A DNA stretch of 64,000 nt from a virus. Below are positions 35,419 through 59,698 of this stretch, piece by piece. How positions within the stretch are numbered: the stretch's first letter is position 1; each line of letters starts with the position of its first letter. The stretch is taken from IMG/VR virus record IMGVR_UViG_3300045988_073134. The stretch is one strand, 5' to 3'. Made by a program: the position numbers and the translations under genes. The notes beneath the pieces were generated by a model, which saw only the letters and a program-made list of their open reading frames with translations, ran no database searches and was not told the DNA's origin.

Positions 35419-35922
35419 CTATTGGTTTTTATATTCTTTTTCCACCAACCATAGTAAACAATAATTAGCTAAGTCCAATATAGTGTCATCTATTTTCTCG
35501 TCCTTTACCTTTTGTTCGTTGTTTGGGTTGCACAATGTTAATAGTCTATTATATTTGTCTGTAATCCTTACTAAGAATGATAAATCACCAAATTTTTTAT
35601 ATGTGTCTGCAACACTATTACCATAGTCATTATTTTTATTTTTATAAGTTTCCTCTAAGTTGTTTAATATATATTGGTATATATCCAATCTATCCATTTT
35701 AGCTTGGTTTATTGTTAGTGCCGGTTCTAACATATCTTTATTCCATACATAAGGGTTATTATAAGTAGCTAAATGGTAATCCCCGTCTTGGTCTATATAC
35801 TCTATAGTATCAACTAAACCTCTAAATTGCAGCATATCTTCTATAACACTACACTCTCCATATTTTTCACCTGCTTGTATACTATCTTTTATTTTAACTA
35901 AATCACCTATTTTATATTCCAT
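35419..35922 (-). CDS. DUF1599-like (nucleotide-modification-associated) protein with an N-terminal SH3-like domain
   Basis: The C-terminal half ETYKNKNNDYGNSVADTYKKFGDLSFLVRITDKYNRLLTL matches my recollection of the DUF1599 KNxDYG...R..DK..R signature. Confidence 0.45.
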   Translation of the reverse strand: MEYKIGDLVKIKDSIQAGEKYGECSVIEDMLQFRGLVDTIEYIDQDGDYHLATYNNPYVWNKDMLEPALTINQAKMDRLDIYQYILNNLEETYKNKNNDYGNSVADTYKKFGDLSFLVRITDKYNRLLTLCNPNNEQKVKDEKIDDTILDLANYCLLWLVEKEYKNQ

Positions 35923-35940
35923 ACTATTTACCTCCCTTTA

Positions 35941-36183
35941 CTATTCATTAAAACTTAATACTATATCACACGCTTTTATAATTCTATTATTTTTATATTT
36001 AGTTCTAATTTCGTCACCATTATTATATATTCTTACATTATTAGTAGTTTCGCTTAAATCTATTGTAATTGCTTTTTGCTTAACATAATCCCAGCCTACT
36101 AATAAATAACTATCTCCATCTATAATTATATCTCCACTAGTAACCAAATCCCCTTTAGGGTAGTTTTTCTTTTTAATTTCCAT
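35941..36183 (-). CDS. Hypothetical protein
   Basis: 80 aa. Its 5' region (catactatttacctcccttt) is identical to that of 35419..35922. Confidence 0.5.
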   Translation of the reverse strand: MEIKKKNYPKGDLVTSGDIIIDGDSYLLVGWDYVKQKAITIDLSETTNNVRIYNNGDEIRTKYKNNRIIKACDIVLSFNE

Positions 36184-36184
36184 A

Positions 36185-36274
36185 CTATTTACCTCCCTTT
36201 GTTACTATATAAAAATATATAAGTCCTAATAATAACTCACCAACAACACCAAATATTAAAACTTTAATTATCAT
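36185..36274 (-). CDS. Micro-ORF, 29-aa hydrophobic peptide
   Basis: MIIKVLIFGVVGELLLGLIYFYIVTKGGK. RBS GGAGGA at 36283-36288 with an 8-nt spacer. Confidence 0.35.
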   Translation of the reverse strand: MIIKVLIFGVVGELLLGLIYFYIVTKGGK

Positions 36275-36362
36275 CGTCTTTATCCTCCACACATAATAAA
36301 ACCATAACTATTAACCAAAGTATTGCTGCTAACCCTAATAAACATCCCATTAATTGTATCAT
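36264..36362 (-). CDS. Micro-ORF, 32-aa hydrophobic peptide
   Basis: MIQLMGCLLGLAAILWLIVMVLLCVEDKDDDN. RBS AAGGAGGA at 36371-36378 with an 8-nt spacer. Confidence 0.35.
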   Translation of the reverse strand: MIQLMGCLLGLAAILWLIVMVLLCVEDKDDDN

Positions 36363-36363
36363 A

Positions 36364-36552
36364 CTATTTTTCCTCCTTTAAATAATTGTCCAAGAACTGG
36401 CACAAATTTATTTTATTTCTATCCTTATATACAATGCAGTCAAAGCATAAATGGCAAAACTCACATTGTCTATGCTCTTTTAACCTTGCTATATTGCAGG
36501 GTGCTAAGACCCTGCATTCTATTTGTTCATTAGTGTAATAATATTCGTCCAT
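36364..36552 (-). CDS. Cys-rich small protein
   Basis: 62 aa with CRVLAPC...CEFCHLCFDC. Confidence 0.45.
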   Translation of the reverse strand: MDEYYYTNEQIECRVLAPCNIARLKEHRQCEFCHLCFDCIVYKDRNKINLCQFLDNYLKEEK

Positions 36553-36701
36553 TATTTATCCTCCTTATATGTTAAATATGCACATCCTATTGTTGTTGCT
36601 CCAATAATTCCCAAACTTACTGGGAATGAAAATCCAGCTATTATAGTAGCTATTGTAATTCCACCTATAGTAGCTAAGTTTGCAACTGTTGTATTATTCA
36701 T
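36552..36701 (-). CDS. 49-aa glycine-zipper-like membrane peptide
   Basis: MNNTTVANLATIGGITIATIIAGFSFPVSLGIIGATTIGCAYLTYKEDK. RBS GGAGGGGG upstream. TAATG overlap with the next gene. Confidence 0.4.
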   Translation of the reverse strand: MNNTTVANLATIGGITIATIIAGFSFPVSLGIIGATTIGCAYLTYKEDK

Positions 36702-36714
36702 TCTTTTCCCCCTC

Positions 36715-36897
36715 CTATTTTATTTCTGTTAAATCTATTAATTTAGCGATACCGTAACATACTATCACACATGAGCCACTTATTATAGCCCATGTATACT
36801 CTCTTAAACGTATATCACCAAACATAAGTATAAAATTTACTATTGCAAATACTTTGAAAATAAATCCTAAAAATTTTAATACATTATTGTTATTCAT
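36715..36897 (-). CDS. Small two-TM membrane protein
   Basis: 60 aa with FLGFIFKVFAIVNFILMF and AIISGSCVIVCYGIA. Confidence 0.45.
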   Translation of the reverse strand: MNNNNVLKFLGFIFKVFAIVNFILMFGDIRLREYTWAIISGSCVIVCYGIAKLIDLTEIK

Positions 36898-37098
36898 TTA
36901 CTCCACCTCACCTTTACTTAATATATATTGCATATATGCCAACCTACAGTCCGCCGTGTCGTATTGTGCTAGGGGGCAATCTTTGCAGCCCCTAGTTTTA
37001 CCATCATACATACTATCACAAAATAATTTAACTCTGTCTGTCAAGTCTGCCACTAATTCTCTATCACTTTTACTTTTTCTTCGGCTCATACATTCCAC
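36898..37098 (-). CDS. Cys-rich small protein
   Basis: 66 aa with CDSMYDGKTRGCKDCPLAQYDTADC. Its start overlaps the end of thyX. Confidence 0.4.
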   Translation of the reverse strand: MECMSRRKSKSDRELVADLTDRVKLFCDSMYDGKTRGCKDCPLAQYDTADCRLAYMQYILSKGEVE

Positions 37099-37762
37099 AC
37101 CCTTTCATCTCTGGACAATAACCTAACTTCTTACATTGTGGTACTAATAACTCTTTGTATCTCGGCTCAACTGCCACTACTTCTTTTACCATTTCTTGTA
37201 CTAAATAATGTATTGGTAATTCAGCTCTATTACATAATCTTACATTAGCTAAATGTATAAGACCTTCAATGTTTACTGCAAAACTACAAGCACTTGCTAT
37301 TCCTATTGGTACAAAAGTTCTTGCTATCTCGTTTGCACGTTCTTTATCAACTCCTGCCTGCTTCATCTTTTCAATTGTTAATTGATAACAAGTGGCTGCA
37401 TATTCTTCAGTTAAAAAATGGTCTCTAACTAGTAGAGGGTTTTTTCTTATCTCAGGAGCTGCGTATACATCCATTCTATCTTTTGTAACATATCTTAAAG
37501 ATTGAACATTTTTAACTACTCCTACCTCATGTCTTACTAGTTGGTCAATTGTAAAACGTGGAACTCTTTGTAAGTCAAATACAAAATATAGATGTCTGCT
37601 ACCGCTTAAATGTCCACTCTTAAGACAATGTAGTCCTACTTTTTCCGCCTGCTCTTTTGGTGTGTCATAACATACACAAGCAAATTCTCCATGTTTCTTG
37701 ATAAATTGTGTTACCTCATCTTTATTAACTAAAGTTACTTGAAAATTATTTTCTCCAAACAT
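37070..37762 (-). CDS. thyX: Flavin-dependent thymidylate synthase
   Basis: The ThyX signature RHEVGVVKNVQSLRYV (RH..x..S.RY) is present in a 230-aa protein. Confidence 0.8.
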   Translation of the reverse strand: MFGENNFQVTLVNKDEVTQFIKKHGEFACVCYDTPKEQAEKVGLHCLKSGHLSGSRHLYFVFDLQRVPRFTIDQLVRHEVGVVKNVQSLRYVTKDRMDVYAAPEIRKNPLLVRDHFLTEEYAATCYQLTIEKMKQAGVDKERANEIARTFVPIGIASACSFAVNIEGLIHLANVRLCNRAELPIHYLVQEMVKEVVAVEPRYKELLVPQCKKLGYCPEMKGCGMYEPKKK

Positions 37763-42345: not shown

Positions 42346-42382
42346 CTATATATAGTATAGGAGGTATCTCTTATTCGCTAAC
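42346..42382 (-). promoter_or_regulatory. 37-bp promoter motif copy P5 (variant -35-like block GTTAGCGAA)
   Basis: The + strand reads ctatatatagtataggaggtatctcttattcgctaac. It overlaps the 9-5-9 palindrome cctcctata-tatag-tataggagg at 42342-42364. Confidence 0.45.
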
Positions 42383-42997
42383 TTGGTCTTTAACTTTTTT
42401 AAAAAAATCTTTTACTACTCTTGATACATAAGCAGGTGATACACTGTACTGATATGCTATGTATGTACCTTTTATGCCACACAGATAATCTGCTATTATA
42501 GCACGTTGTTTGTCATTCTTCACGTTCTTTAATTCTTCTCTAATAATTTCTTTTAACTCACGTACTAATGCACTAAGCTCTACATCTTCTTTACTTTCCA
42601 AATAATTCTCTAATGATGTGTATCTAATATGACCATGATGTTTGAGTTGTATATATCCATCTATGGATAATATCTTATATATATTTTGTTCACCATCTGT
42701 AGTATATCTATTATGTTTGTCTATTCTATTTCTGTACTGTCTTAATTCTCTTTTTATTGAGGGATATGCAAAAGTTGTGAATAGTGTACCATATGAAGGG
42801 TCATAATGGTCTACACACTTCATTATACACTGCCATGCGACCTGGTACAGCTCATCTCTATCATTGTATAATTTATATGGTTTTAATAGGGAATATACCA
42901 TATTGTCTATGTACTGTGGTAATTCGTTTATCGCCTCTTTATCTCCGTTTTTATATCTCATAACAATTTCCTGGCACTTATTTCCATTATTACTCAT
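42371..42997 (-). CDS. Sigma-70-family factor (regions 2 and 4)
   Basis: DELYQVAWQCIMKCVDHYDPSYGTLFTTFAYPSIKRELRQY is region 2-like. The C-terminal IAYQYSVSPAYVSRVVKDFFKKV is a region 4-like HTH. Confidence 0.65.
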   Translation of the reverse strand: MSNNGNKCQEIVMRYKNGDKEAINELPQYIDNMVYSLLKPYKLYNDRDELYQVAWQCIMKCVDHYDPSYGTLFTTFAYPSIKRELRQYRNRIDKHNRYTTDGEQNIYKILSIDGYIQLKHHGHIRYTSLENYLESKEDVELSALVRELKEIIREELKNVKNDKQRAIIADYLCGIKGTYIAYQYSVSPAYVSRVVKDFFKKVKDQVSE

Positions 42998-44157: not shown

Positions 44158-44634
44158 TTAATACATCTCCTTATTAGTTTCTTGGTATTCTTTGTATAGT
44201 TCTCTTACTTTGTCTCTAGATTTAGGGTCATGCTCCACGGGAACCACTTCTCTATTCTTACAATCTCCTTTTATAAAATCATATATAAAATCATCTCTAA
44301 AACCTATTTCTTCAGCATCTTTTACATCACCAGCATATATCACTTTATCCAAGTTAGCCCATATTATTGCAGCCATACACATTGGACAAGGATACCCAGT
44401 TGCATATAGAGTATATCCTGTCAAATCAAAAGTATTTAGTATCTTACACGCAGTTCTTATAGCACATATCTCAGCATGAGCAGTTGGGTCATTATTACCT
44501 AATACATGATTACTATCTACACAAATTATTTCTCCAGTTTTACTATTTACTATAGCAGCTCCAAAGGGACCTCCTATTCCTTTACTCATAGTCATTTTAG
44601 CTTGTTTAATTCCTAAATCCATTGGTTTACTCAT
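44158..44634 (-). CDS. CDA-fold zinc deaminase, closest by eye to guanine deaminase (GuaD type) rather than dCMP deaminase
   Basis: GGPFGAAIV, NDPTAHAEICAIR, YPCPMCMAAIIWA, KVIYA and AEEIGFRDDFIYDF all parallel B. subtilis GuaD as I recall it. ATG 44634 has RBS AAGGAGTG. The track start at 44643 is a GTG. Confidence 0.6.
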   Translation of the reverse strand: MSKPMDLGIKQAKMTMSKGIGGPFGAAIVNSKTGEIICVDSNHVLGNNDPTAHAEICAIRTACKILNTFDLTGYTLYATGYPCPMCMAAIIWANLDKVIYAGDVKDAEEIGFRDDFIYDFIKGDCKNREVVPVEHDPKSRDKVRELYKEYQETNKEMY

Positions 44635-44664
44635 ACTTATCACTCCTTACAGTTTATTTATCTT

Positions 44665-44701
44665 ACATATATAGTATAGAAAAAGTGGGTGATTTACTAA
44701 C
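44665..44701 (-). promoter_or_regulatory. 37-bp promoter motif copy P6
   Basis: The + strand reads acatatatagtatagaaaaagtgggtgatttactaac. Confidence 0.55.
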
Positions 44702-44708
44702 CACCCAC
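44681..44708 (-). terminator. Terminator hairpin embedded in P6 (loop holds the -35-like block)
   Basis: The minus strand reads GTGGGTG-GTTAGTAAAT-CACCCAC followed by TTTTTCTATACT. Confidence 0.55.
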
Positions 44709-44714
44709 TTTGTT

Positions 44715-45278
44715 TTATTTACCAGTAGTATATTTAAAAATATATCCACCTGTAGAGTTCCATACACCATTACATACATCCACAATATACTGTCGTTTAA
44801 TACCTGTTTGTTTGGAGGTTTCACCTGCATTAATAAACGTTTTAACGTATTGTCCTTGTTTGGTATACATCTCTACGGGTTTTAAATCGCGTTCCCAACG
44901 TTTTTTACTCATATTTGATAAATGTTCTTTACTACTATAATCTCTGTTCCCACATTCTAAGGCGTGTATATTATTATGTTGTACCGTACACCATTCTAAA
45001 TTTTCTACTCGATTATCATCTCTTATACTATTAATATGATTAACTACGGGCAGATTATTTGGGTTAGGTATAAAGGTCATTGCAACTAATCTATGCACTT
45101 GGTAGTAATAACATTTACCTTCCTTATATAAATTTACTTTTAAATAACCATCCTTACTATATGGCAAGTGCATCCAATGTTTTCGTTTAACACCATATAT
45201 TTTCCCATCTCTTGTTATTTTATATAGACCTTCAAAACCAGGTATATCATATAATTGATTATCGATTCGTAGTTCCAT
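44715..45278 (-). CDS. HNH_3/NUMOD4-type homing endonuclease
   Basis: IPGFEGLYKITRDGKIYG and VNHINSIRDDNRVENLEWCT. ATG 45278 has RBS AGAGG. It overlaps the 3' end of dut. Confidence 0.7.
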   Translation of the reverse strand: MELRIDNQLYDIPGFEGLYKITRDGKIYGVKRKHWMHLPYSKDGYLKVNLYKEGKCYYYQVHRLVAMTFIPNPNNLPVVNHINSIRDDNRVENLEWCTVQHNNIHALECGNRDYSSKEHLSNMSKKRWERDLKPVEMYTKQGQYVKTFINAGETSKQTGIKRQYIVDVCNGVWNSTGGYIFKYTTGK

Positions 45279-45717
45279 AACCGCCTCTATCTGGGTTGCC
45301 AAGCTCATCCACCTCCTCTATGTCTAAAGGAGTACTTTTTTTCACACTTATCTGAACTAATCTATCACCTTTTTTAAATGCTCCATATCTAGTACTATAA
45401 AACATTGCTAACCATTCATCATTATCTCCACAATACGTATCATCAACTAATCCCATGCTATTAGTAAGTAATAGACCAGTATTTTTAAAGGTGCTACTAC
45501 GTGGTAGTATATACCCCTCGTAGCCTTTTCCCATGTCCATTGCAAATCCTAAATTGACTACTATTATATCTCCAGGTGAGAACCTTATTATATTACCTGT
45601 AGGTTCCACACCATTCACACTTGCAGTACGTACATAACAGTCATACCAATTACCATTTTTACTTTGTGGAGCTTTACCTCCTTCAAATAATCTTACTTTT
45701 ACTTTTTTATTTGCCAT
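45259..45717 (-). CDS. dut: dUTPase (trimeric type)
   Basis: GYILPRSS, GLVDDTYCGDNDEW and C-terminal DRGGYGTT match dUTPase motifs. Confidence 0.75.
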   Translation of the reverse strand: MANKKVKVRLFEGGKAPQSKNGNWYDCYVRTASVNGVEPTGNIIRFSPGDIIVVNLGFAMDMGKGYEGYILPRSSTFKNTGLLLTNSMGLVDDTYCGDNDEWLAMFYSTRYGAFKKGDRLVQISVKKSTPLDIEEVDELGNPDRGGYGTTNR

Positions 45718-48550: not shown

Positions 48551-49462
48551 CTAAAATAATCTTTTTTGGTATCTGTTATTACCTTTATATTTATAGTTAT
48601 CTGCCCAATCTTTAAAGTAATTTATATTGTATAATTGTCTACTCTCTTGGTTTTCCATACATTGCTCTATTGATGTTCCATATGAAACGCATTGCTCATC
48701 TATTTGTCTCTGTACTAACTGTGGTAATTTATTGTAATGACTGACTTTGTGTTGTACTTTTGGTGATACACATATTCTACCATATTTGGTACATAACTCT
48801 CCATTTATTGCAGCCATTAACCACGTTGTACTGTCTGCACTCTCAAAGGGATAATTTTCTAATATGTCTAAGTTAGTCATCCCAAACGCATGAACTTTTA
48901 CTTTTGGATTCTTACTTTGTTGTATAATCTTAAAACATTGTTTATACCAATCTTCTTTTACTGAGCTGGCCAATCCAACAGTTCCACCAAGTCCTATATA
49001 TGGAATATGTTTCCCATGAAACGTTGCCTCTAACATATTTTGTAGATGTCTAAAGTCTTCTCCAATATGAAATACTGGTAATAATTTGTCTTTGTCTCTT
49101 ACTTGCTCTCTCATATATAAATAATTGTGCCATGACTTCTCAGGCGATTCACGTTGCTCTAATAATGTAGGTTTTCTTTTTAACTCACCTGGAATGTCAT
49201 CTACACTTGCAAACAAAGTAAATTTGTCTGTATTATCATTTATAAACTTTATATAATCTTCTACGTCTATATGTTTATTTTTACTCCAAGCACTGTATGC
49301 TCCCGAGTCTATAAATAACTTATTATTGGACATTACTTCTAAAAACTTCATTATAACTTTTCTGTCATTTATTTGTGAAAATAGTACATCACATTCTCTT
49401 TTTATTATTATGTCATTCTGAGTATTTACTTTACTTCCCGCTAAATATAAGTTAAAACTCAT
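48551..49462 (-). CDS. dpdA: DpdA-like DNA guanine transglycosylase, paralogue 2 (TGT fold)
   Basis: LFIDSGAYSAW, GLGGTVG, HAFGMT and ESADSTTW parallel the TGT motifs DSGGFQ, LxGVG and DxFDS. It lies downstream of the preQ0 genes. Confidence 0.6.
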   Translation of the reverse strand: MSFNLYLAGSKVNTQNDIIIKRECDVLFSQINDRKVIMKFLEVMSNNKLFIDSGAYSAWSKNKHIDVEDYIKFINDNTDKFTLFASVDDIPGELKRKPTLLEQRESPEKSWHNYLYMREQVRDKDKLLPVFHIGEDFRHLQNMLEATFHGKHIPYIGLGGTVGLASSVKEDWYKQCFKIIQQSKNPKVKVHAFGMTNLDILENYPFESADSTTWLMAAINGELCTKYGRICVSPKVQHKVSHYNKLPQLVQRQIDEQCVSYGTSIEQCMENQESRQLYNINYFKDWADNYKYKGNNRYQKRLF

Positions 49463-49474
49463 TCAGCTCACCTC

Positions 49475-50398
49475 CTAAAATAATCTCTTTTGAAACCTAT
49501 TGTTACCTTTGTATTTATACTTATCTGCCCAGTTTTGTATATAATGAATATTAACAACAGTTCTCAAGTTAGTATTTTCTACACATTCTTCTAATGTCAA
49601 ATTACATTCAGCTATTTGTGCTTCCACTTGTTTCTGTACATCTTTTGGTAATTTTAATATGTGGTTAGGTCTGTGTTGAGCAGAATTAGATAATCCTACA
49701 ACACCATATTTTGTAAGAATATTTCCATTAATTGCCAACATCATCCAGGTAGTACTATCAGCACTTGTAAATGGATAATTCTCTAATATATTCAAACTAG
49801 TCATTCCAAAAGCATGTGTTTTTATATTTGGGTTATTACTCTCTTTTATTACTTTAAAACATTGTTTATACCAATTACTCTTTACTGAACTTGGTCTAAC
49901 TCCAACTGTTCCTCCTAACGCTATATATGGTATATGTTTTCCGTCTAATATTGTATTACACATATTACTCAGATGTTTAAAATCTTCTCCCATATGAAAA
50001 ACTGGTAATAATTTGTCGGGTTCTTTAACTCGCTCTCTCATATATAAATAATTTTCCCACGATAATAATGGAGATTGTTGTTTCTCTTTTAGTGTTGGTG
50101 TTCTCGTTAATTCTCCTGGTATATTATCTACACTAGCAAACAATGTTAACTCATTGGTATTCTCATTTAAATAATTTATATACTCATCTGTATCAATACT
50201 TTTACCTCTTGACCAGGCACTATATGCTCCACTATCTACAAATACTTTTGTACCTGGTTTTTCTTTAGCTTGTTGTAACCATAATTTTCCTCTACTCCTA
50301 TCACGTAGTTGAGAATATAATCTACAACTTCCTCTTGCCATCATGGCTTCATCAGCTTCAATATCTCTCACTCCTGCGAAGTATAAATCAAAACTCAT
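49475..50398 (-). CDS. dpdA: DpdA-like DNA guanine transglycosylase, paralogue 1 (TGT fold)
   Basis: VFVDSGAYSAW, ALGGTVG, HAFGMT and TSADSTTW. It is roughly half to 60 percent identical to the next gene by eye and shares its C-terminus KYKGNNR(F/Y)QKRLF. Confidence 0.6.
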   Translation of the reverse strand: MSFDLYFAGVRDIEADEAMMARGSCRLYSQLRDRSRGKLWLQQAKEKPGTKVFVDSGAYSAWSRGKSIDTDEYINYLNENTNELTLFASVDNIPGELTRTPTLKEKQQSPLLSWENYLYMRERVKEPDKLLPVFHMGEDFKHLSNMCNTILDGKHIPYIALGGTVGVRPSSVKSNWYKQCFKVIKESNNPNIKTHAFGMTSLNILENYPFTSADSTTWMMLAINGNILTKYGVVGLSNSAQHRPNHILKLPKDVQKQVEAQIAECNLTLEECVENTNLRTVVNIHYIQNWADKYKYKGNNRFQKRLF

Positions 50399-50419
50399 GT
50401 TATCAACTCCTTTTTAATT

Positions 50420-50456
50420 ACATATATAGTATATAAAAAGTGGCCAGTTTACTAAC
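50420..50456 (-). promoter_or_regulatory. 37-bp promoter motif copy P7
   Basis: The + strand reads acatatatagtatataaaaagtggccagtttactaac. It lies upstream of dpdA paralogue 1. Confidence 0.55.
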
Positions 50457-50463
50457 TGACCAC
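50435..50463 (-). terminator. Terminator hairpin embedded in P7, after folE
   Basis: The minus strand reads GTGGTCAG-TTAGTAAA-CTGGCCAC followed by TTTTTATATACT, with one mismatch. Confidence 0.5.
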
Positions 50464-50471
50464 TTAATTTT

Positions 50472-51050
50472 TTATCTAAATAATTCATATGCTTCTTGTC
50501 TTAATTCAATATTAGTTTTAAATCTACCTCTTATAGTTGCAGTTCTTGTTTTAGCTCCACGAGATTTAATTCCTCTTGCAGTCATACAACTATGTTCACC
50601 TTCTACTACTACAATTATATCTTCTGTATCTAATATCATCTGTAGTATATCAGCAATATCTTCTCCAATACGTTCTTGTAATTGTAGTCTCTTAGCTACC
50701 ATGTCTGCCACTCTAGCAATTTTACTAAGTCCTATAACCTTTCCGTTTGCTATGTATCCAACACTGACAGTCATATTATACATTAATGCCAAGTGGTGTT
50801 CACAATAACTAAAAATTGGTATTTTAGATACAGTTACAAGGTCATCTGCTCCCTCATCATAAAAACATTTATCGAACATCTCAGCTATTTCTTCATTTGT
50901 ATAGTTCATACCTTCAAATACTTCTTGATACATTTTAGCGACTCTTTTAGGAGTCTCTTTTAGTCCTGCTCTGTCTGGGTCATCTCCTAACGCCACTAAT
51001 ATATCTCTTACTGCACTTTCAATTTTCTTAGTATCTATCATATTATACAC
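50472..51050 (-). CDS. folE: GTP cyclohydrolase I
   Basis: [34 protein letters not shown] and [11 protein letters not shown]. Confidence 0.85.
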
Positions 51051-51699
51051 CTCTCATATTTGGATTCCATATTATTTTATGCAACTGAACTTGTACTTTT
51101 ACATTGTTTAATCTATTATCCAGTATATACTCAACTAATTCTTTTGGTTCTATTTTACCAAATACTGGTGATACATAAGGCTGAGCTTTACATTCGCTCT
51201 CCTCTAGTATATATTCCATTTTCTCTAATTCATTGTAATTACTAACTACAAATTTAATTACATCTTTAGGTTGAAGTAATTTTAAATTCCACAACTTCAT
51301 TTTATCTTCCATGCCACTACTTGCACATTTATAATCCATTGTGAATATTACTTTACTATTATACTTGTATTCCCAAAACTTATCTAAATCAACTGCTCCA
51401 TTAGTTTCTATATTTACTTCAACATCATTAGCTACTAAAGAGTTGATTAAATCTTTTACATTCTCATGTATTAATGGTTCTCCTCCAGTTAATGTTACAC
51501 GAGGAACTCCGTATGTTAATACCTCATCTAATATATCCATTAATGGCATTTCAGTATATTCACTATTTTCACAACTATAACGAGTATCACAGTAACTACA
51601 TTTTAAATTACAGCCATACAGTCTTATAAAGACTGTAGGCAACCCAGTTCTAACTCCTTCTCCATCTATACTAAGAAATATTTCATTTACTTTATACAT
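51043..51699 (-). CDS. queE: 7-carboxy-7-deazaguanine synthase (radical SAM)
   Basis: [42 protein letters not shown] 51699 lies just after the queD stop. The track start at 51765 is inside queD. Confidence 0.85.
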
Positions 51700-51700
51700 T

Positions 51701-52075
51701 TTATCTTCCACAATTACATCCCCCTTTAACTTCATATATTGCAGTGTTATGAGCACTTTCCTCAACGCTTACTCTAGTACATTTTACATATATGCCATCA
51801 AACATACCAGTTAATTGGTCAGCTATCCATTTAGCAATATTCTCAGCAGTTGGATTAACTCCAACAACATCATTTATATACGCATGGTCTAATTGGTTTA
51901 CAACTCTTTTTATATGAGTAAAATCCATTACCATTCCATACTCAGTTAATTCTTCACTCTCTATTTGAACTTCTATATTCCAGTTATGACCATGTAGGTT
52001 ACTACATTTACTTTCATAAGGTAAATCTAATTTATGAGCTCCTGCAACTTCCATTTTCTTTATTATTTTATACAT
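51701..52075 (-). CDS. queD: 6-carboxy-5,6,7,8-tetrahydropterin synthase
   Basis: 124 aa with SKCSNLHGHNW and the PTS-fold size. Confidence 0.8.
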   Translation of the reverse strand: MYKIIKKMEVAGAHKLDLPYESKCSNLHGHNWNIEVQIESEELTEYGMVMDFTHIKRVVNQLDHAYINDVVGVNPTAENIAKWIADQLTGMFDGIYVKCTRVSVEESAHNTAIYEVKGGCNCGR

Positions 52076-52076
52076 A

Positions 52077-52811
52077 TTATTTTTCCTCCCAATCTATTTT
52101 TATTTTATATGGTACAGGGTCAACTGCTCCATTTGCCTTAAAGGCATTTATTCTATCTATACAAGTACCACAAGTACCACAACAAGGTCTTTCACCTTCA
52201 TAACAGCTATGAGTTAATTCGTATGGCACTTTTAAATCTAATCCCAAACGTACAATATCTTTTTTAGTCATATTTACAAAAGGAGCATGAACTCTAACTT
52301 TGTCATAAGTACCAATTGATATAGCTTTATCCATAGTCTCAGTAAATTCAGGACTACAGTCAGCATAGGCTTCACCGGCTGCATCATCTACATGAGCTCC
52401 TAAATATATAGTAGCAATTGTGTCTGGTTTGTCTTCAACTAGACTCATCGCTATGGCAGCTACACTACTTAATAATAATCCATTTCTAAATGGTACATAA
52501 GTTCTTACCATTCCCTCTCCATCTTTGGCTATTTGGTCTGCATAACTCTCATGTCTAATTTCTTCTGTACTATTAGATAATAGAGAACAGTTACTATATG
52601 CAAATATTTTACTTAAATCTATTTCTATATGTTTTACATCATAATACTCAGCTATATCTTTTGCACATTTCAATTCAATACTGTGCTTTTGTCCATAATA
52701 CGCACTAACTGTAACAACATTCTCTTTTCCATATAAATCTACTGCTAATCCCACTGCTGTTGTACTATCTACACCACCACTATTTAATACTACTGCAATT
52801 TCTTTACTCAT
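52077..52811 (-). CDS. queC: 7-cyano-7-deazaguanine (preQ0) synthase
   Basis: PP-loop VVLNSGGVDSTT and C-terminal zinc motif SCYEGERPCCGTCGTCIDR. Confidence 0.85.
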   Translation of the reverse strand: MSKEIAVVLNSGGVDSTTAVGLAVDLYGKENVVTVSAYYGQKHSIELKCAKDIAEYYDVKHIEIDLSKIFAYSNCSLLSNSTEEIRHESYADQIAKDGEGMVRTYVPFRNGLLLSSVAAIAMSLVEDKPDTIATIYLGAHVDDAAGEAYADCSPEFTETMDKAISIGTYDKVRVHAPFVNMTKKDIVRLGLDLKVPYELTHSCYEGERPCCGTCGTCIDRINAFKANGAVDPVPYKIKIDWEEK

Positions 52812-52842
52812 TATTACACATCTCCTTTTTCTTATTTGTTAT

Positions 52843-52879
52843 ACATATATAGTATATAAAAAACTCGGCTTTTACTAAC
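52843..52879 (-). promoter_or_regulatory. 37-bp promoter motif copy P8
   Basis: The + strand reads acatatatagtatataaaaaactcggcttttactaac. It lies upstream of queC. Confidence 0.55.
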
Positions 52880-56000: not shown

Positions 56001-56035
56001 TTAACACCACTCCTTATTTTTTATTTATTTAACTT

Positions 56036-56072
56036 ACATATATAGTATAGAAAACCAGGTTATTTTACTAAC
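56036..56072 (-). promoter_or_regulatory. 37-bp promoter motif copy P9
   Basis: The + strand reads acatatatagtatagaaaaccaggttattttactaac. Confidence 0.55.
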
Positions 56073-59086: not shown

Positions 59087-59100
59087 CGGTTTTTACTAAC
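59064..59100 (-). promoter_or_regulatory. 37-bp promoter motif copy P10
   Basis: The + strand reads ctatatatagtatagtaagacttcggtttttactaac. It lies upstream of nrdJ. Confidence 0.5.
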
Positions 59101-59698
59101 TTAATAAATAATTTAATTTCTTTTGAAGTGCACGTCTAATTCCAACAACACCTGCAGTACTAACTCCAATTTCCCTTGCCATGTGAGATTGTTGTAAGTC
59201 ACACATATGGTCAAGTGCTACCATACAATATTGTAATTGTTTTTCAGATAAATCTTCCTTATGTACTAAGTCAGATAATTCAACTTTGTCATATTCATCT
59301 TCAACACTTGCTTCCTCCCATCTATCTTCAGTTGTCTCATAACAACTCATTGGAGTACATTGGTCGCCGTTGTTCGCTTTACGTTTATTACTTGCATTAC
59401 TTTGTGTTAGAGTTCTAAGAGCATTCTTGATATAAACACATATCATAGAAGTTAATTTACCACTAGTACTCTTTTCAGCATCAAAGTTTTCAAAACATTT
59501 CCATATTTGTTCTAATATTACACTTGTAACTTCATCATCACTTACACCAACGTATTTTTTACTTACTTGATAAAATAGACTCTTATTTGTCTCAAATACA
59601 TATGCAATAACTTCATCATGAAAACCTGCTTGGTAATCTCTAACTAATTCCTCATCAGTGTGTTTTAAACCATAAACTTTAACTACATCTTTAAACAT
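59096..59698 (-). CDS. Sigma-factor-like protein (region 2-like N-terminus, region 4-like HTH)
   Basis: 200 aa. C-terminal SHMAREIGVSTAGVVGIRRALQKKL is HTH-like. The N-terminal VILEQIWKCFENFD segment is region 2-like. It is the first gene after early promoter E3. Confidence 0.5.
   Translation of the reverse strand: MFKDVVKVYGLKHTDEELVRDYQAGFHDEVIAYVFETNKSLFYQVSKKYVGVSDDEVTSVILEQIWKCFENFDAEKSTSGKLTSMICVYIKNALRTLTQSNASNKRKANNGDQCTPMSCYETTEDRWEEASVEDEYDKVELSDLVHKEDLSEKQLQYCMVALDHMCDLQQSHMAREIGVSTAGVVGIRRALQKKLNYLLS

What the first reader, a model, noticed from the sequence alone, without database searches (positions are those of the whole stretch)
44158..44634. Guanine-deaminase-like enzyme in a phage that probably swaps guanine out of its DNA
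The 158-aa CDA-fold protein would routinely be labelled a dCMP deaminase. Its motifs (GGPFGAAIV, NDPTAHAE, PCPMC..AIIWA, KVIYA, and especially the C-terminal AEEIGFRDDFIYDF) instead track B. subtilis GuaD as I remember that sequence. They do not match ComEB or T4 Cd-type dCMP deaminases, which have HAExNA and no GFxDxFIY tail. Each DpdA exchange releases free guanine. A guanine-to-xanthine deaminase could pull that reversible exchange forward or stop guanine from competing with preQ0. It might alternatively act on a 7-deazapurine base. This functional link is speculative.
Basis: partly seen in the sequence, partly recalled or inferred. Interest (0 to 1): 0.65.

Follow-up and report, generated by a model that had tools for sequence, protein, structure and literature searches.

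The report
Guanine deaminase partner of phage DpdA
A phage that swaps guanine in its DNA for a 7-deazaguanine base also carries a bacterial-type guanine deaminase, and the same pairing recurs in dozens of uncultured phage lineages, which suggests the enzyme disposes of the guanine that the swap releases.

Summary
The ORF is real: minus strand, 44158-44634, 158 aa, with its own RBS and a phage promoter-like motif. It belongs to the B. subtilis GuaD family of CDA-fold guanine deaminases and is not a dCMP deaminase or TadA. GuaD is the best solved-structure match by sequence (3e-30) and by fold (TM 0.87 over 155 residues). All residues that align with GuaD's catalytic set are kept: N42, H53, E55, C83, C86, D114 and the terminal Tyr.

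[quoted passage not shown] Those phages lack this gene.

Of 40 dereplicated IMG/VR lineages closest to this protein, 27 have dpdA and/or que genes within 10 kb, in at least seven gene arrangements. None of 61 bacterial loci does. Three phages keep DpdA and the deaminase but have no preQ0 synthesis genes, so the deaminase tracks the exchange step. In 16 loci a purine phosphoribosyltransferase sits next to it.

The best reading is a guanine sink that stops released guanine from competing with preQ0. Activity is untested. The papers I could search do not describe this pairing.

The parts
44158..44634 (-). GuaD-type (CDA-fold) guanine deaminase gene, 158 aa
   Evidence: ORF. Pfam PF00383 7.6e-21. 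Best PDB sequence hit is B. subtilis GuaD, 3e-30. AlphaFold model has pLDDT 94.7, and its best fold match is 1wkq/1tiy at TM 0.86-0.88 over 155 columns. N42, H53, E55, C83, C86, D114 and terminal Y158 are invariant.
44663..44678 (-). Promoter-like motif TATACTATATATGTAA, 28 nt upstream of the deaminase start codon
   Evidence: Exact copy. The same 16-mer (0-1 mismatch) recurs on the minus strand, including upstream of dpdA (50418-50433), queC (52841-52856) and the SSB gene (56034-56049). There are 22 matches at up to 3 mismatches against 9.5 expected. Its function as a promoter is inferred.
44683..44710 (-). Hairpin with loop TTAGTAAA just upstream of the promoter-like motif
   Evidence: Only two copies occur in the window, the other upstream of dpdA; 0 are expected by chance. 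Relatives keep both copies with compensatory stem changes.
48551..49462 (-). DpdA paralog b (DNA guanine transglycosylase)
   Evidence: phrog_887, 6.6e-58. 56% identical to paralog a.
49475..50398 (-). DpdA paralog a (DNA guanine transglycosylase)
   Evidence: phrog_887, 4.9e-55. 44% identical to Streptococcus phage Dp-1 DpdA and about 31% to the CAjan/Seurat type.
50438..50465 (-). Second copy of the TTAGTAAA-loop hairpin, upstream of dpdA a, followed by the promoter-like motif at 50418-50433
50472..51050 (-). FolE (GTP cyclohydrolase I)
   Evidence: PF01227, 1.3e-64.
51043..51765 (-). QueE (radical SAM 7-carboxy-7-deazaguanine synthase)
   Evidence: PF04055 7e-14 and PF13353. The position matches QueE in phage MS1.
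51701..52075 (-). QueD (6-carboxytetrahydropterin synthase)
   Evidence: PF01242, 2.9e-31.
52077..52811 (-). QueC (7-cyano-7-deazaguanine synthase)
   Evidence: PF06508, 3.8e-52.

Best explanation
The gene encodes a zinc-dependent guanine deaminase of the B. subtilis GuaD type. It serves as an accessory arm of the phage's 7-deazaguanine DNA-modification system.

Shown by the evidence: the phage has the genes to make preQ0 from GTP (FolE, QueD, QueE, QueC; no QueF was found). It also has two DpdA transglycosylases, enzymes that cut guanine out of DNA and insert the deazaguanine base.

Inferred: each exchange frees one guanine. DpdA can also re-insert free guanine, so accumulating guanine competes with preQ0 for the covalent enzyme-DNA intermediate. 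Guanine is also poorly soluble. The deaminase would convert released guanine to xanthine. Xanthine lacks the 2-amino group that TGT-family enzymes read, so the exchange would run one way and guanine would not build up. The conserved C-terminal tyrosine reads N7 of the purine in the related plant enzyme. It should therefore make the enzyme act on guanine while sparing 7-deazaguanines. In sister phage lineages an adjacent purine phosphoribosyltransferase could send the product, or guanine itself, back to the nucleotide pool.

Family membership and gene linkage are shown here. Substrate, direction of benefit and effect size are inferred.
For: Identity:
- GuaD is the top PDB sequence hit at 3e-30.
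- The full-length fold match to 1wkq/1tiy has TM 0.86-0.88. The guanosine deaminase matches only the 112-column core.
- N42, H53, E55, C83, C86, D114 and the terminal Tyr are invariant and align with the same residues of GuaD.
- ComEB and TadA models score far below their cut-offs.
- Orthologs in Agrilactobacillus and Brochothrix sit next to nucleobase permease genes.
- Nematode homologs 47% identical to GuaD are guanine deaminases in vivo (bioRxiv 10.64898/2026.04.09.715363).

Linkage:
- 51 of 65 non-redundant-group viral loci, or 27 of 40 lineages, have dpdA and/or que genes within 10 kb, against 0 of 61 bacterial loci (Fisher p = 5e-15).
- At least seven different gene orders occur, including inside the que cluster and directly after DpdA.
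- The window protein is 58% identical to bacterial homologs but only 47% to the L018 phage protein. The L018 protein is 70-73% identical to a different bacterial clade. This argues for separate acquisitions.
- L159 and L165, and probably L100, keep DpdA and the deaminase with only a transporter and no QueC/D/E/FolE. The gene therefore tracks the exchange step.
- Cultured relatives MS1/Dp-1 have the same synteny but no deaminase, so it is an accessory gene.

Mechanism:
- Bacterial DpdA/B inserts [14C]guanine into DNA at levels comparable to preQ0 (PMC10164549).
- The terminal Tyr of AtGSDA hydrogen-bonds N7, and 7-deazaguanosine is listed among the inactive derivatives (PMC10663702).
- Replacing 10-100% of G at a burst of 50-100 would release about 0.2-3.4 mM guanine per 1-fL cell.
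- The deaminase shares a promoter-like motif and a rare hairpin with dpdA.
Against: - No enzymology has been done. Guanine versus guanosine or deoxyguanosine cannot be separated by sequence.
- Most known deazaguanine phages manage without this gene. 329 deposited records have QueC and 184 have a DpdA of this type, and no known deazaguanine phage appears among the 20 records with any GuaD/TadA-like hit.
- In 9 linked lineages, a group of large phages, no DpdA was found within 10 kb.
- The 80 loci examined were those ranked closest to the window protein. A second sample ranked by B. subtilis GuaD was mostly giant-virus MAGs and had 0 of 80 with que or dpdA genes. The link therefore holds for one phage clade of the family, not for all viral copies.
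- Many linked phages share a replication module, so the lineages are not fully independent.
- That 7-deazaguanine insertion is already irreversible, and that xanthine is a poor TGT/DpdA substrate, rests on my own knowledge of tRNA TGT. I could not verify either here.
Confidence: 0.55

Rival explanations
1. Purine recycling rather than relief of competition. The enzyme is a guanine deaminase, but its value lies in returning released guanine to the nucleotide pool: guanine to xanthine, then XMP, GMP and GTP. This would feed FolE and DNA synthesis or avoid guanine-triggered shut-off of host purine genes. It overlaps with the main reading and differs only in which benefit is selected.
For: A short 6-oxopurine-type phosphoribosyltransferase sits directly beside the deaminase in 16 related loci. 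The pathway starts from GTP.
Against: The window itself has no such transferase. Direct salvage of guanine to GMP would be shorter than a route through xanthine. Phages that only import the precursor (L159, L165) still keep the deaminase.
Confidence: 0.2
2. The deaminase acts on a 7-deazaguanine base (preQ0, CDG, ADG or preQ1) and makes a 7-deazaxanthine derivative. That product could be a new DNA base inserted by one of the DpdA paralogs, or a way to dispose of excess precursor.
For: The gene sits inside the que cluster in many phages. The window has two diverged DpdA paralogs. Linked phage proteins favour A78/G80/Y147 where bacterial ones have T/C/F. Phosphoribosyltransferases and 2-amino removal are known in deazapurine antibiotic pathways (bioRxiv 10.64898/2026.04.15.718813).
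Against: All catalytic and base-reading residues are unchanged from chromosomal bacterial orthologs that have no que genes nearby. The terminal Tyr that reads N7 is invariant. The paper on the related plant enzyme lists 7-deazaguanosine among inactive guanosine derivatives that bind weakly. A xanthine-like base in DNA would pair poorly with C (own knowledge).
Confidence: 0.08
3. It works at the nucleoside or nucleotide level, as a guanosine, deoxyguanosine or dGMP deaminase, and reshapes the G pool during infection.
For: Arabidopsis guanosine deaminase is the second-best structural relative (5e-24) and shares the same catalytic residues and terminal Tyr.
Against: GuaD scores 20 bits higher. 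Only GuaD matches over the full length, including the C-terminal helix and tail. Bacterial orthologs lie next to nucleobase permeases. This reading does not explain the link to DpdA.
Confidence: 0.08
4. It supplies ammonia to QueC. Deamination of one released guanine would give the one NH3 that QueC needs to turn CDG into preQ0.
For: The deaminase is immediately adjacent to queC in several lineages, for example L093, L097, L104 and L133. The stoichiometry is 1:1:1 (own reasoning).
Against: L159, L165 and L100 keep DpdA plus the deaminase without QueC. In the window the gene is 7.4 kb from queC and next to recA. Free ammonia is normally abundant in cells (own knowledge).
Confidence: 0.03
5. It is an ordinary nucleotide-metabolism gene unrelated to DNA modification: a dCMP deaminase, a TadA-like tRNA editor, or a stray host gene.
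For: Routine labels point that way. PHROGs calls it dCMP deaminase (9.6e-12), the best NCBIfam hit is TadA, and it lies between the dUTPase and RecA genes.
Against: TadA scores 56.6 bits against a cut-off of 150, and ComEB 27.3 against 219. T4 Cd scores only 8e-4. The GuaD-specific D114 and C-terminal Tyr tail are present. The co-occurrence with dpdA/que is strong.
Confidence: 0.04

Closest known systems
Bacillus subtilis guanine deaminase GuaD/YknA (PDB 1wkq, 1tiy)
   Same: Same fold and length (158 vs 156 aa). About 40% identity overall (39% in the structural alignment, 41% in the multiple alignment). Same zinc ligands (H53, C83, C86), E55, N42, D114 and a C-terminal tail ending in Tyr. Best sequence and fold match.
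   Different: It belongs to a 'GFRDDFIYDFI' subfamily common in Mollicutes, Bacilli, Sphaerochaeta and phages. GuaD is a chromosomal purine-catabolism gene, while this one is phage-borne and tied to DpdA. Activity has not been measured.
Arabidopsis guanosine deaminase GSDA (PDB 7dbf and others)
   Same: Same catalytic residues and a terminal Tyr that hydrogen-bonds N7 of the purine. Second-best PDB hit.
   Different: Only the 112-column core superposes (TM 0.68). GSDA acts on the nucleoside.
Phage 7-deazaguanine DNA modification systems (Streptococcus phages Dp-1/MS1; 9g and CAjan-type DpdA1 phages)
   Same: Same genes and order: QueC-QueD-QueE-FolE-DpdA-clamp-exonuclease-RecU-x-dUTPase-RecA. 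DpdA is 44% identical to Dp-1's.
   Different: The cultured phages have no GuaD-type gene; in MS1 the dUTPase gene runs straight into recA. The window has two DpdA copies and no QueF, Vut or QueT. Neither of the two reference papers mentions a deaminase or a phosphoribosyltransferase.
dCMP deaminases (B. subtilis ComEB, phage T4 Cd)
   Same: Same superfamily and Pfam domain. This is the usual automatic label.
   Different: ComEB scores 27 bits against a cut-off of 219, and T4 Cd 8e-4. The window protein instead has D114 and the C-terminal Tyr tail.
Nitrosomonas europaea guanine deaminase NE0047
   Same: A CDA-fold guanine deaminase that uses two acidic residues, an Asn contacting O6 and a C-terminal lid.
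   Different: A separate group of the family: no domain swap, an extra N-terminal sandwich, and much weaker similarity (1e-12).
Base-to-nucleotide steps of deazapurine antibiotic pathways (toyocamycin, tubercidin)
   Same: A phosphoribosyltransferase and removal of the 2-amino group are encoded next to preQ0/CDG synthesis genes.
   Different: Those pathways use a reductive GMP-reductase homolog and lack DpdA. Here the enzyme is a hydrolytic base deaminase and DpdA is present. The window has no transferase.

Membership tests
CDA-fold guanine deaminase, B. subtilis GuaD type | Zinc site H-A-E ... P-C-x-x-C with the catalytic Glu | tested here: met
   H53, E55, C83 and C86 are invariant and align with the same residues of GuaD.
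CDA-fold guanine deaminase, B. subtilis GuaD type | Second acidic residue (Asp114 in GuaD; Asp140 in GSDA; Glu143 in NE0047) and the Asn that contacts O6 | tested here: met
   D114 and N42 are invariant in A1, A2 and A3, and in all 27 phage-linked representatives. Their roles are taken from PMC10663702 and PMC9081823.
CDA-fold guanine deaminase, B. subtilis GuaD type | C-terminal extension whose last residue is Tyr | tested here: met
   The protein ends ...NKEMY. The terminal Y is invariant and aligns with GuaD Y156.
CDA-fold guanine deaminase, B. subtilis GuaD type | Closer to GuaD than to any other characterised deaminase, over the full length | tested here: met
   By sequence, 108 bits to GuaD against 88 (GSDA), 63 (TadA) and 22 (T4 Cd). 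By fold, TM 0.86-0.88 over 155 columns to 1wkq/1tiy.
CDA-fold guanine deaminase, B. subtilis GuaD type | Domain-swapped dimer with an inter-subunit active site | not tested
   Only a monomer model was built.
CDA-fold guanine deaminase, B. subtilis GuaD type | Converts guanine to xanthine | not testable with these tools
   This needs an enzyme assay.
dCMP deaminase (ComEB / T4 Cd) | Reaches the curated family score | tested here: not met
   TIGR02571 ComEB scores 27.3 bits against a cut-off of 219.45. 1vq2 scores 7.6e-4.
tRNA adenosine deaminase TadA | Reaches the curated family score | tested here: not met
   NF008113 scores 56.6 bits against a cut-off of 150, and the match stops at residue 104, before the GuaD-specific tail.
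Guanosine deaminase (plant GSDA type) | Best match and full-length fold agreement | tested here: inconclusive
   It shares the catalytic residues, but scores lower (5e-24) and only the core superposes. Base versus nucleoside preference cannot be read from sequence.
Phage DpdA / 7-deazaguanine DNA modification system (as the setting of the gene) | A DpdA transglycosylase is present | tested here: met
   Two copies hit phrog_887 at 5e-55 and 7e-58. Copy a is 44% identical to Dp-1 DpdA.
Phage DpdA / 7-deazaguanine DNA modification system (as the setting of the gene) | preQ0 pathway genes FolE, QueD, QueE and QueC are present | tested here: met
Phage DpdA / 7-deazaguanine DNA modification system (as the setting of the gene) | Phage DNA actually carries a 7-deazaguanine | not testable with these tools
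   This needs LC-MS/MS of virion DNA.

The most novel reading that the evidence does not exclude
Base-exchange DNA hypermodification has a dedicated by-product arm. Phages repeatedly recruit a guanine deaminase, often with a purine phosphoribosyltransferase, because free guanine limits how much of the genome DpdA can convert. This would be the first scavenging enzyme shown to set the extent of a DNA modification. The more exotic version is that the deaminase makes a 7-deazaxanthine base that ends up in DNA; that version alone has a probability of about 0.07.
Probability: 0.45. Interest if true: 0.75.

Novelty: new variant of a known kind. Interest (0 to 1): 0.62.

Why it matters
Reported 7-deazaguanine replacement by DpdA enzymes ranges from under 0.1% to 100% of G (PMC10516641), and what sets that level is not understood. 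A recurrent guanine-removing enzyme next to DpdA points to product competition as one controlling factor, and that can be tested directly. It would also give a practical way to raise modification levels in engineered DNA. It corrects a routine mis-annotation ('dCMP deaminase' or 'tadA') in gut and rumen phage genomes. It also adds the deaminase, and in sister lineages a short purine phosphoribosyltransferase, to the list of signature genes for finding deazaguanine phages in metagenomes.

Tried and rejected
- **No close deposited relative.** Megablast of 10 kb around the gene against deposited phages found nothing.
- **QueC as a single query.** A viral scan with one QueC protein returned only the window's own phage group, so it gave no estimate of how many deazaguanine phages carry the deaminase. 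I used counts from the deposited phage collection instead.
- **Ammonia donor for QueC.** I considered this because of the queC adjacency. I rejected it as the main role because L159, L165 and L100 keep DpdA plus the deaminase without QueC.
- **Missing partner genes in the window.** A search for the partner phosphoribosyltransferase, QueF, Vut or the SDR found none.
- **DpdA in the large-phage group.** I looked for it in L084, L096, L104, L109-L118, L126 and L132. My DpdA profile, PHROGs and Pfam found none within 10 kb. A recurrent 322-aa protein (phrog_1221) is not DpdA-like by hhalign (probability 0.2%) and has no PDB relative.
- **Short human-faecal contigs.** The 'Bacteriophage sp.' contigs with weak deaminase hits have no que genes.
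- **Literature gaps.** The original GuaD structure paper (PMID 15180998) is not held. A search for xanthine as a TGT substrate found nothing. Both points rest on secondary sources or my own knowledge.
- **Promoter and terminator scan.** The generic sigma-70 and terminator scan around the gene was uninformative: 58 promoter-like sites against 66 expected.

Full report
**1. The observation**

The window carries an ORF on the minus strand at 44158-44634, with 158 codons and a TAA stop. The ATG at 44634 follows AAGGAG at the right distance. The GTG nine bases upstream that the ORF lister prefers lies inside that ribosome-binding site. RecA starts one base after the stop codon. An HNH/NUMOD4 homing endonuclease and a dUTPase gene lie upstream.

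**2. What the protein is**

Family models place it outside the families it is usually labelled with.
- Pfam gives only the superfamily (dCMP_cyt_deam_1, 7.6e-21).
- NCBIfam's TadA model scores 56.6 bits against a cut-off of 150, and ComEB 27.3 against 219.
- PHROGs would label it dCMP deaminase.

Against every PDB sequence the best hit is B. subtilis guanine deaminase GuaD (1tiy/1wkq, 3e-30, aligned over residues 16-129). Next come Arabidopsis guanosine deaminase (5e-24), TadA (2e-16) and NE0047 (1e-12). T4 dCMP deaminase scores only 8e-4.

I checked my recalled GuaD sequence against the PDB entry, and it matched over all 156 residues. In alignments with phage and bacterial homologs, N42, H53, E55, C83, C86, D114 and the very last residue, Tyr, are invariant. 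They align with the same residues of GuaD.

An AlphaFold model built on 35 homologs has mean pLDDT 94.7. Its best structural matches are the GuaD chains, with TM 0.86-0.88 and rmsd about 2 Å over 155 columns. The plant guanosine deaminase matches only the 112-column core.

Two further observations support a nucleobase substrate. Orthologs in Agrilactobacillus and Brochothrix lie directly downstream of Xan_ur_permease genes. Nematode homologs 47% identical to GuaD are guanine deaminases in vivo.

I conclude that this is a GuaD-family enzyme. Base versus nucleoside preference is likely but not proven.

**3. The setting**

All genes in this region are on the minus strand.
- Upstream lie QueC, QueD, QueE and FolE (52811-50472).
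- Two tandem DpdA genes follow (50398-48551). They are 56% identical to each other.
- Then come the sliding clamp, a Cas4-like exonuclease, RecU, an unknown ORF, dUTPase, the HNH gene, the deaminase, RecA, a sigma factor, the clamp loader, ThyX and DUF1599.
- No QueF, Vut or QueT was found, so the expected base is preQ0 or a derivative.

The closest cultured relatives are Streptococcus phages Dp-1 and MS1. QueC is 52% identical in MS1 and DpdA 44% identical in Dp-1. MS1 has the same gene order, but its dUTPase gene runs straight into recA with no deaminase between them. The deaminase is therefore an accessory insertion in this phage family.

A 16-nt promoter-like motif (TATACTATATATGTAA) lies 28 nt upstream of the deaminase. 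It also lies upstream of dpdA, queC and the SSB gene. A hairpin with the loop TTAGTAAA occurs only twice in the window, once before the deaminase and once before dpdA. Relatives keep both copies with compensatory stem changes.

**4. Co-occurrence**

*First sample.* A pattern scan of IMG/VR with a family alignment found 201 viral stretches, and the 80 closest to the window protein were fetched. Fifteen belong to the window's own phage group.
- Of the other 65 loci, 51 carry dpdA and/or queC/D/E/folE within 10 kb.
- After clustering the deaminases at 80% identity, 27 of 40 lineages are linked.
- None of 61 bacterial loci holding the closest cellular homologs has such genes within 6 kb. These homologs are 43-58% identical and come from Mollicutes, Bacilli, Sphaerochaeta, Clostridia and Phascolarctobacterium.
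- Fisher's exact test on 27/40 against 0/61 gives 5e-15. In deposited phages the QueC frequency is 329 of 50,697 records.

*Gene orders.* The position of the deaminase differs among lineages:
- dUTPase-GuaD-RecA (the window, L107, L159-L163).
- DpdA-x-GuaD-QueC (L093 group).
- QueC-PRT-GuaD-QueD (L081, L122, L139).
- QueD-GuaD-PRT-QueE (L084).
- QueC-GuaD-PRT-QueD (L104).
- FolE-GuaD (L109).
- DpdA-GuaD-Vut next to the terminase gene in a different kind of phage (L165).

*Separate acquisitions.* The window protein is 58% identical to bacterial homologs but only 47% to the L018 phage protein. The L018 protein is 70-73% identical to another bacterial clade. This points to more than one acquisition.

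*The gene follows DpdA.* L159 has the window's synteny and a deaminase 65% identical. Its que synthesis genes are replaced by a QueT transporter and a short-chain dehydrogenase, yet it keeps DpdA and the deaminase. L165 and L100 have DpdA directly followed by the deaminase and no synthesis genes in the fetched DNA. The gene therefore follows the exchange enzyme and not preQ0 synthesis.

*Limits.*
- The 80 loci are the ones most like the query.
- A second sample, ranked by similarity to B. subtilis GuaD, consists mostly of giant-virus MAGs. It has 0 of 80 loci with que or dpdA genes. The link is therefore a property of one phage-borne clade.
- Many linked phages share a replication module, so the lineages are not independent.
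- Flanks were limited to 10 kb.
- Nine linked lineages of large phages have QueC/D/E, FolE, QueF (seen in L112 and L109) and Vut, but no detectable DpdA nearby.
- Known cultured deazaguanine phages lack the gene.

**5. A partner gene elsewhere**

In 16 of the related loci the deaminase is flanked by a 119-187-aa protein with the PRPP-binding motif. It hits Pfam Pribosyltran (2.7e-9), and its best PDB relatives are archaeal purine phosphoribosyltransferases 1vdm, 4trb and 4z1o. The window has no homolog. Two purine-base enzymes beside DpdA fit the idea that these phages deal with the released base.

**6. Mechanism**

*Established.*
- DpdA works by base exchange through a covalent enzyme-DNA intermediate.
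- Bacterial DpdA/B inserts [14C]guanine into DNA at levels consistent with preQ0 insertion (PMC10164549). Free guanine is therefore a competing substrate.
- In the plant relative, the terminal Tyr hydroxyl hydrogen-bonds N7 of the purine and seals the site. 7-Deazaguanosine is listed among the inactive derivatives that bind weakly (PMC10663702).

*Inferred.*
- Each exchange frees one guanine. For the 20,666 G residues of the window duplex, a burst of 50-100 and 10-100% replacement give roughly 0.2-3.4 mM per 1-fL cell.
- That is far above guanine's solubility, which I recall as tens of micromolar. Worms lacking both GuaD-type enzymes do form guanine stones.
- Deamination to xanthine would remove the competitor. 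The conserved Tyr should spare 7-deazaguanines.
- That xanthine is a poor substrate for TGT-family enzymes, and that insertion of a 7-deaza base is not reversed, comes from my knowledge of tRNA TGT. I could not confirm either point here.

**7. Rivals**

- Recycling of guanine through xanthine and XMP is compatible with the evidence and partly overlaps with the main reading.
- Action on a 7-deaza base cannot be excluded. Linked phage proteins favour A78, G80 and Y147, near the PCxxC motif and in the tail helix. However, all catalytic and base-reading residues match chromosomal orthologs that have no que context.
- Ammonia supply to QueC is contradicted by the QueC-less phages.
- dCMP deaminase and TadA fail their family thresholds.

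**8. Novelty**

The two reference papers on phage deazaguanine systems contain no occurrence of 'deaminase', 'xanthine' or 'phosphoribosyl' (PMC6884629 and PMC10516641). Full-text searches combining DpdA or 7-deazaguanine with guanine deaminase found nothing relevant. The enzyme family and the modification system are both known. The recurrent pairing is what appears to be new. I file it as a new variant of a known kind, with moderate to high interest, because it offers a testable explanation for why modification levels differ so much between DpdA systems.

Noticed in passing
window 48551-50398 (-): There are two tandem DpdA paralogs, 56% identical. Relatives L009, L012, L014 and L015 have a single copy, and L160 has a broken second copy. 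Copy number is therefore in flux; the two copies may recognise different sequence motifs.
   Followed up: partly
window 44683-44710 and 50438-50465 (-): A hairpin with the conserved loop TTAGTAAA and covarying stems occurs only twice in 64 kb, just upstream of the deaminase and of dpdA. A T-run follows each copy, then the promoter-like motif. Relatives keep both copies with compensatory changes.
   Followed up: partly
window, minus strand: 25268, 27722, 34383, 39451, 44663, 50418, 52841, 56034, 61238, 63431, 63647: The 16-mer TATACTATATATGTAA (0-1 mismatch) recurs, mostly in intergenic spots ahead of genes. It is probably the promoter of a phage transcription class. The phage encodes two sigma-like proteins (42371-42997, 59096-59698).
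   Followed up: partly
window 44715-45308 (-): An HNH_3/NUMOD4 homing endonuclease is inserted between the dUTPase gene and the deaminase and overlaps the 3' end of dUTPase. Most close relatives lack it (L001-L008), while L014 and L160 have it.
   Followed up: partly
L081 9603-9962; L084 10474-10857; L104 10472-10897; L122 9598-10008; L139 9554-9961; L018 9119-9523 and 10 more loci: A very short purine phosphoribosyltransferase-like protein (119-187 aa) sits directly beside the deaminase in 16 related phage loci. Compared with archaeal purine PRTases its middle segment is deleted. The window has no homolog.
   Followed up: partly
L159 4359-6588: A relative with the window's synteny has replaced QueC/D/E/FolE with a QueT transporter and a short-chain dehydrogenase while keeping DpdA and the deaminase. 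A FabG-like reductase also sits in the que cluster of L112 (5289-5960).
   Followed up: no
L109 6191-7384: The QueF gene of a large phage is interrupted by an intein-like insertion with an HNH motif. The uninterrupted form is at L112 6032-6550.
   Followed up: no
L112 12961-13929 and homologs in 15 other loci (L096, L099, L101, L108-L111, L113-L116, L118, L126, L127, L132): A 322-aa protein of unknown function (phrog_1221) lies a few kb from the deaminase (1-3 kb downstream in most loci, upstream in L126). This includes four loci with no que genes in view. It is not DpdA-like by hhalign and has no PDB relative.
   Followed up: partly
L166-L245: A second population of viral GuaD-family genes, closer to B. 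subtilis GuaD, sits mostly on giant-virus MAG contigs (GVMAG). None has que or dpdA genes nearby.
   Followed up: partly
window 35419-37762 (-): ThyX lies near a DUF1599 protein ('nucleotide modification associated domain 1'). The pair is conserved in all relatives, so a second, pyrimidine-directed modification or pool change is possible.
   Followed up: no
residues 78, 80 and 147 of the deaminase: Phage proteins linked to dpdA/que mostly have A78, G80 and Y147, where bacterial chromosomal homologs mostly have T, C and F. This may be shared ancestry or a subtle tuning of the pocket next to the PCxxC motif.
   Followed up: partly
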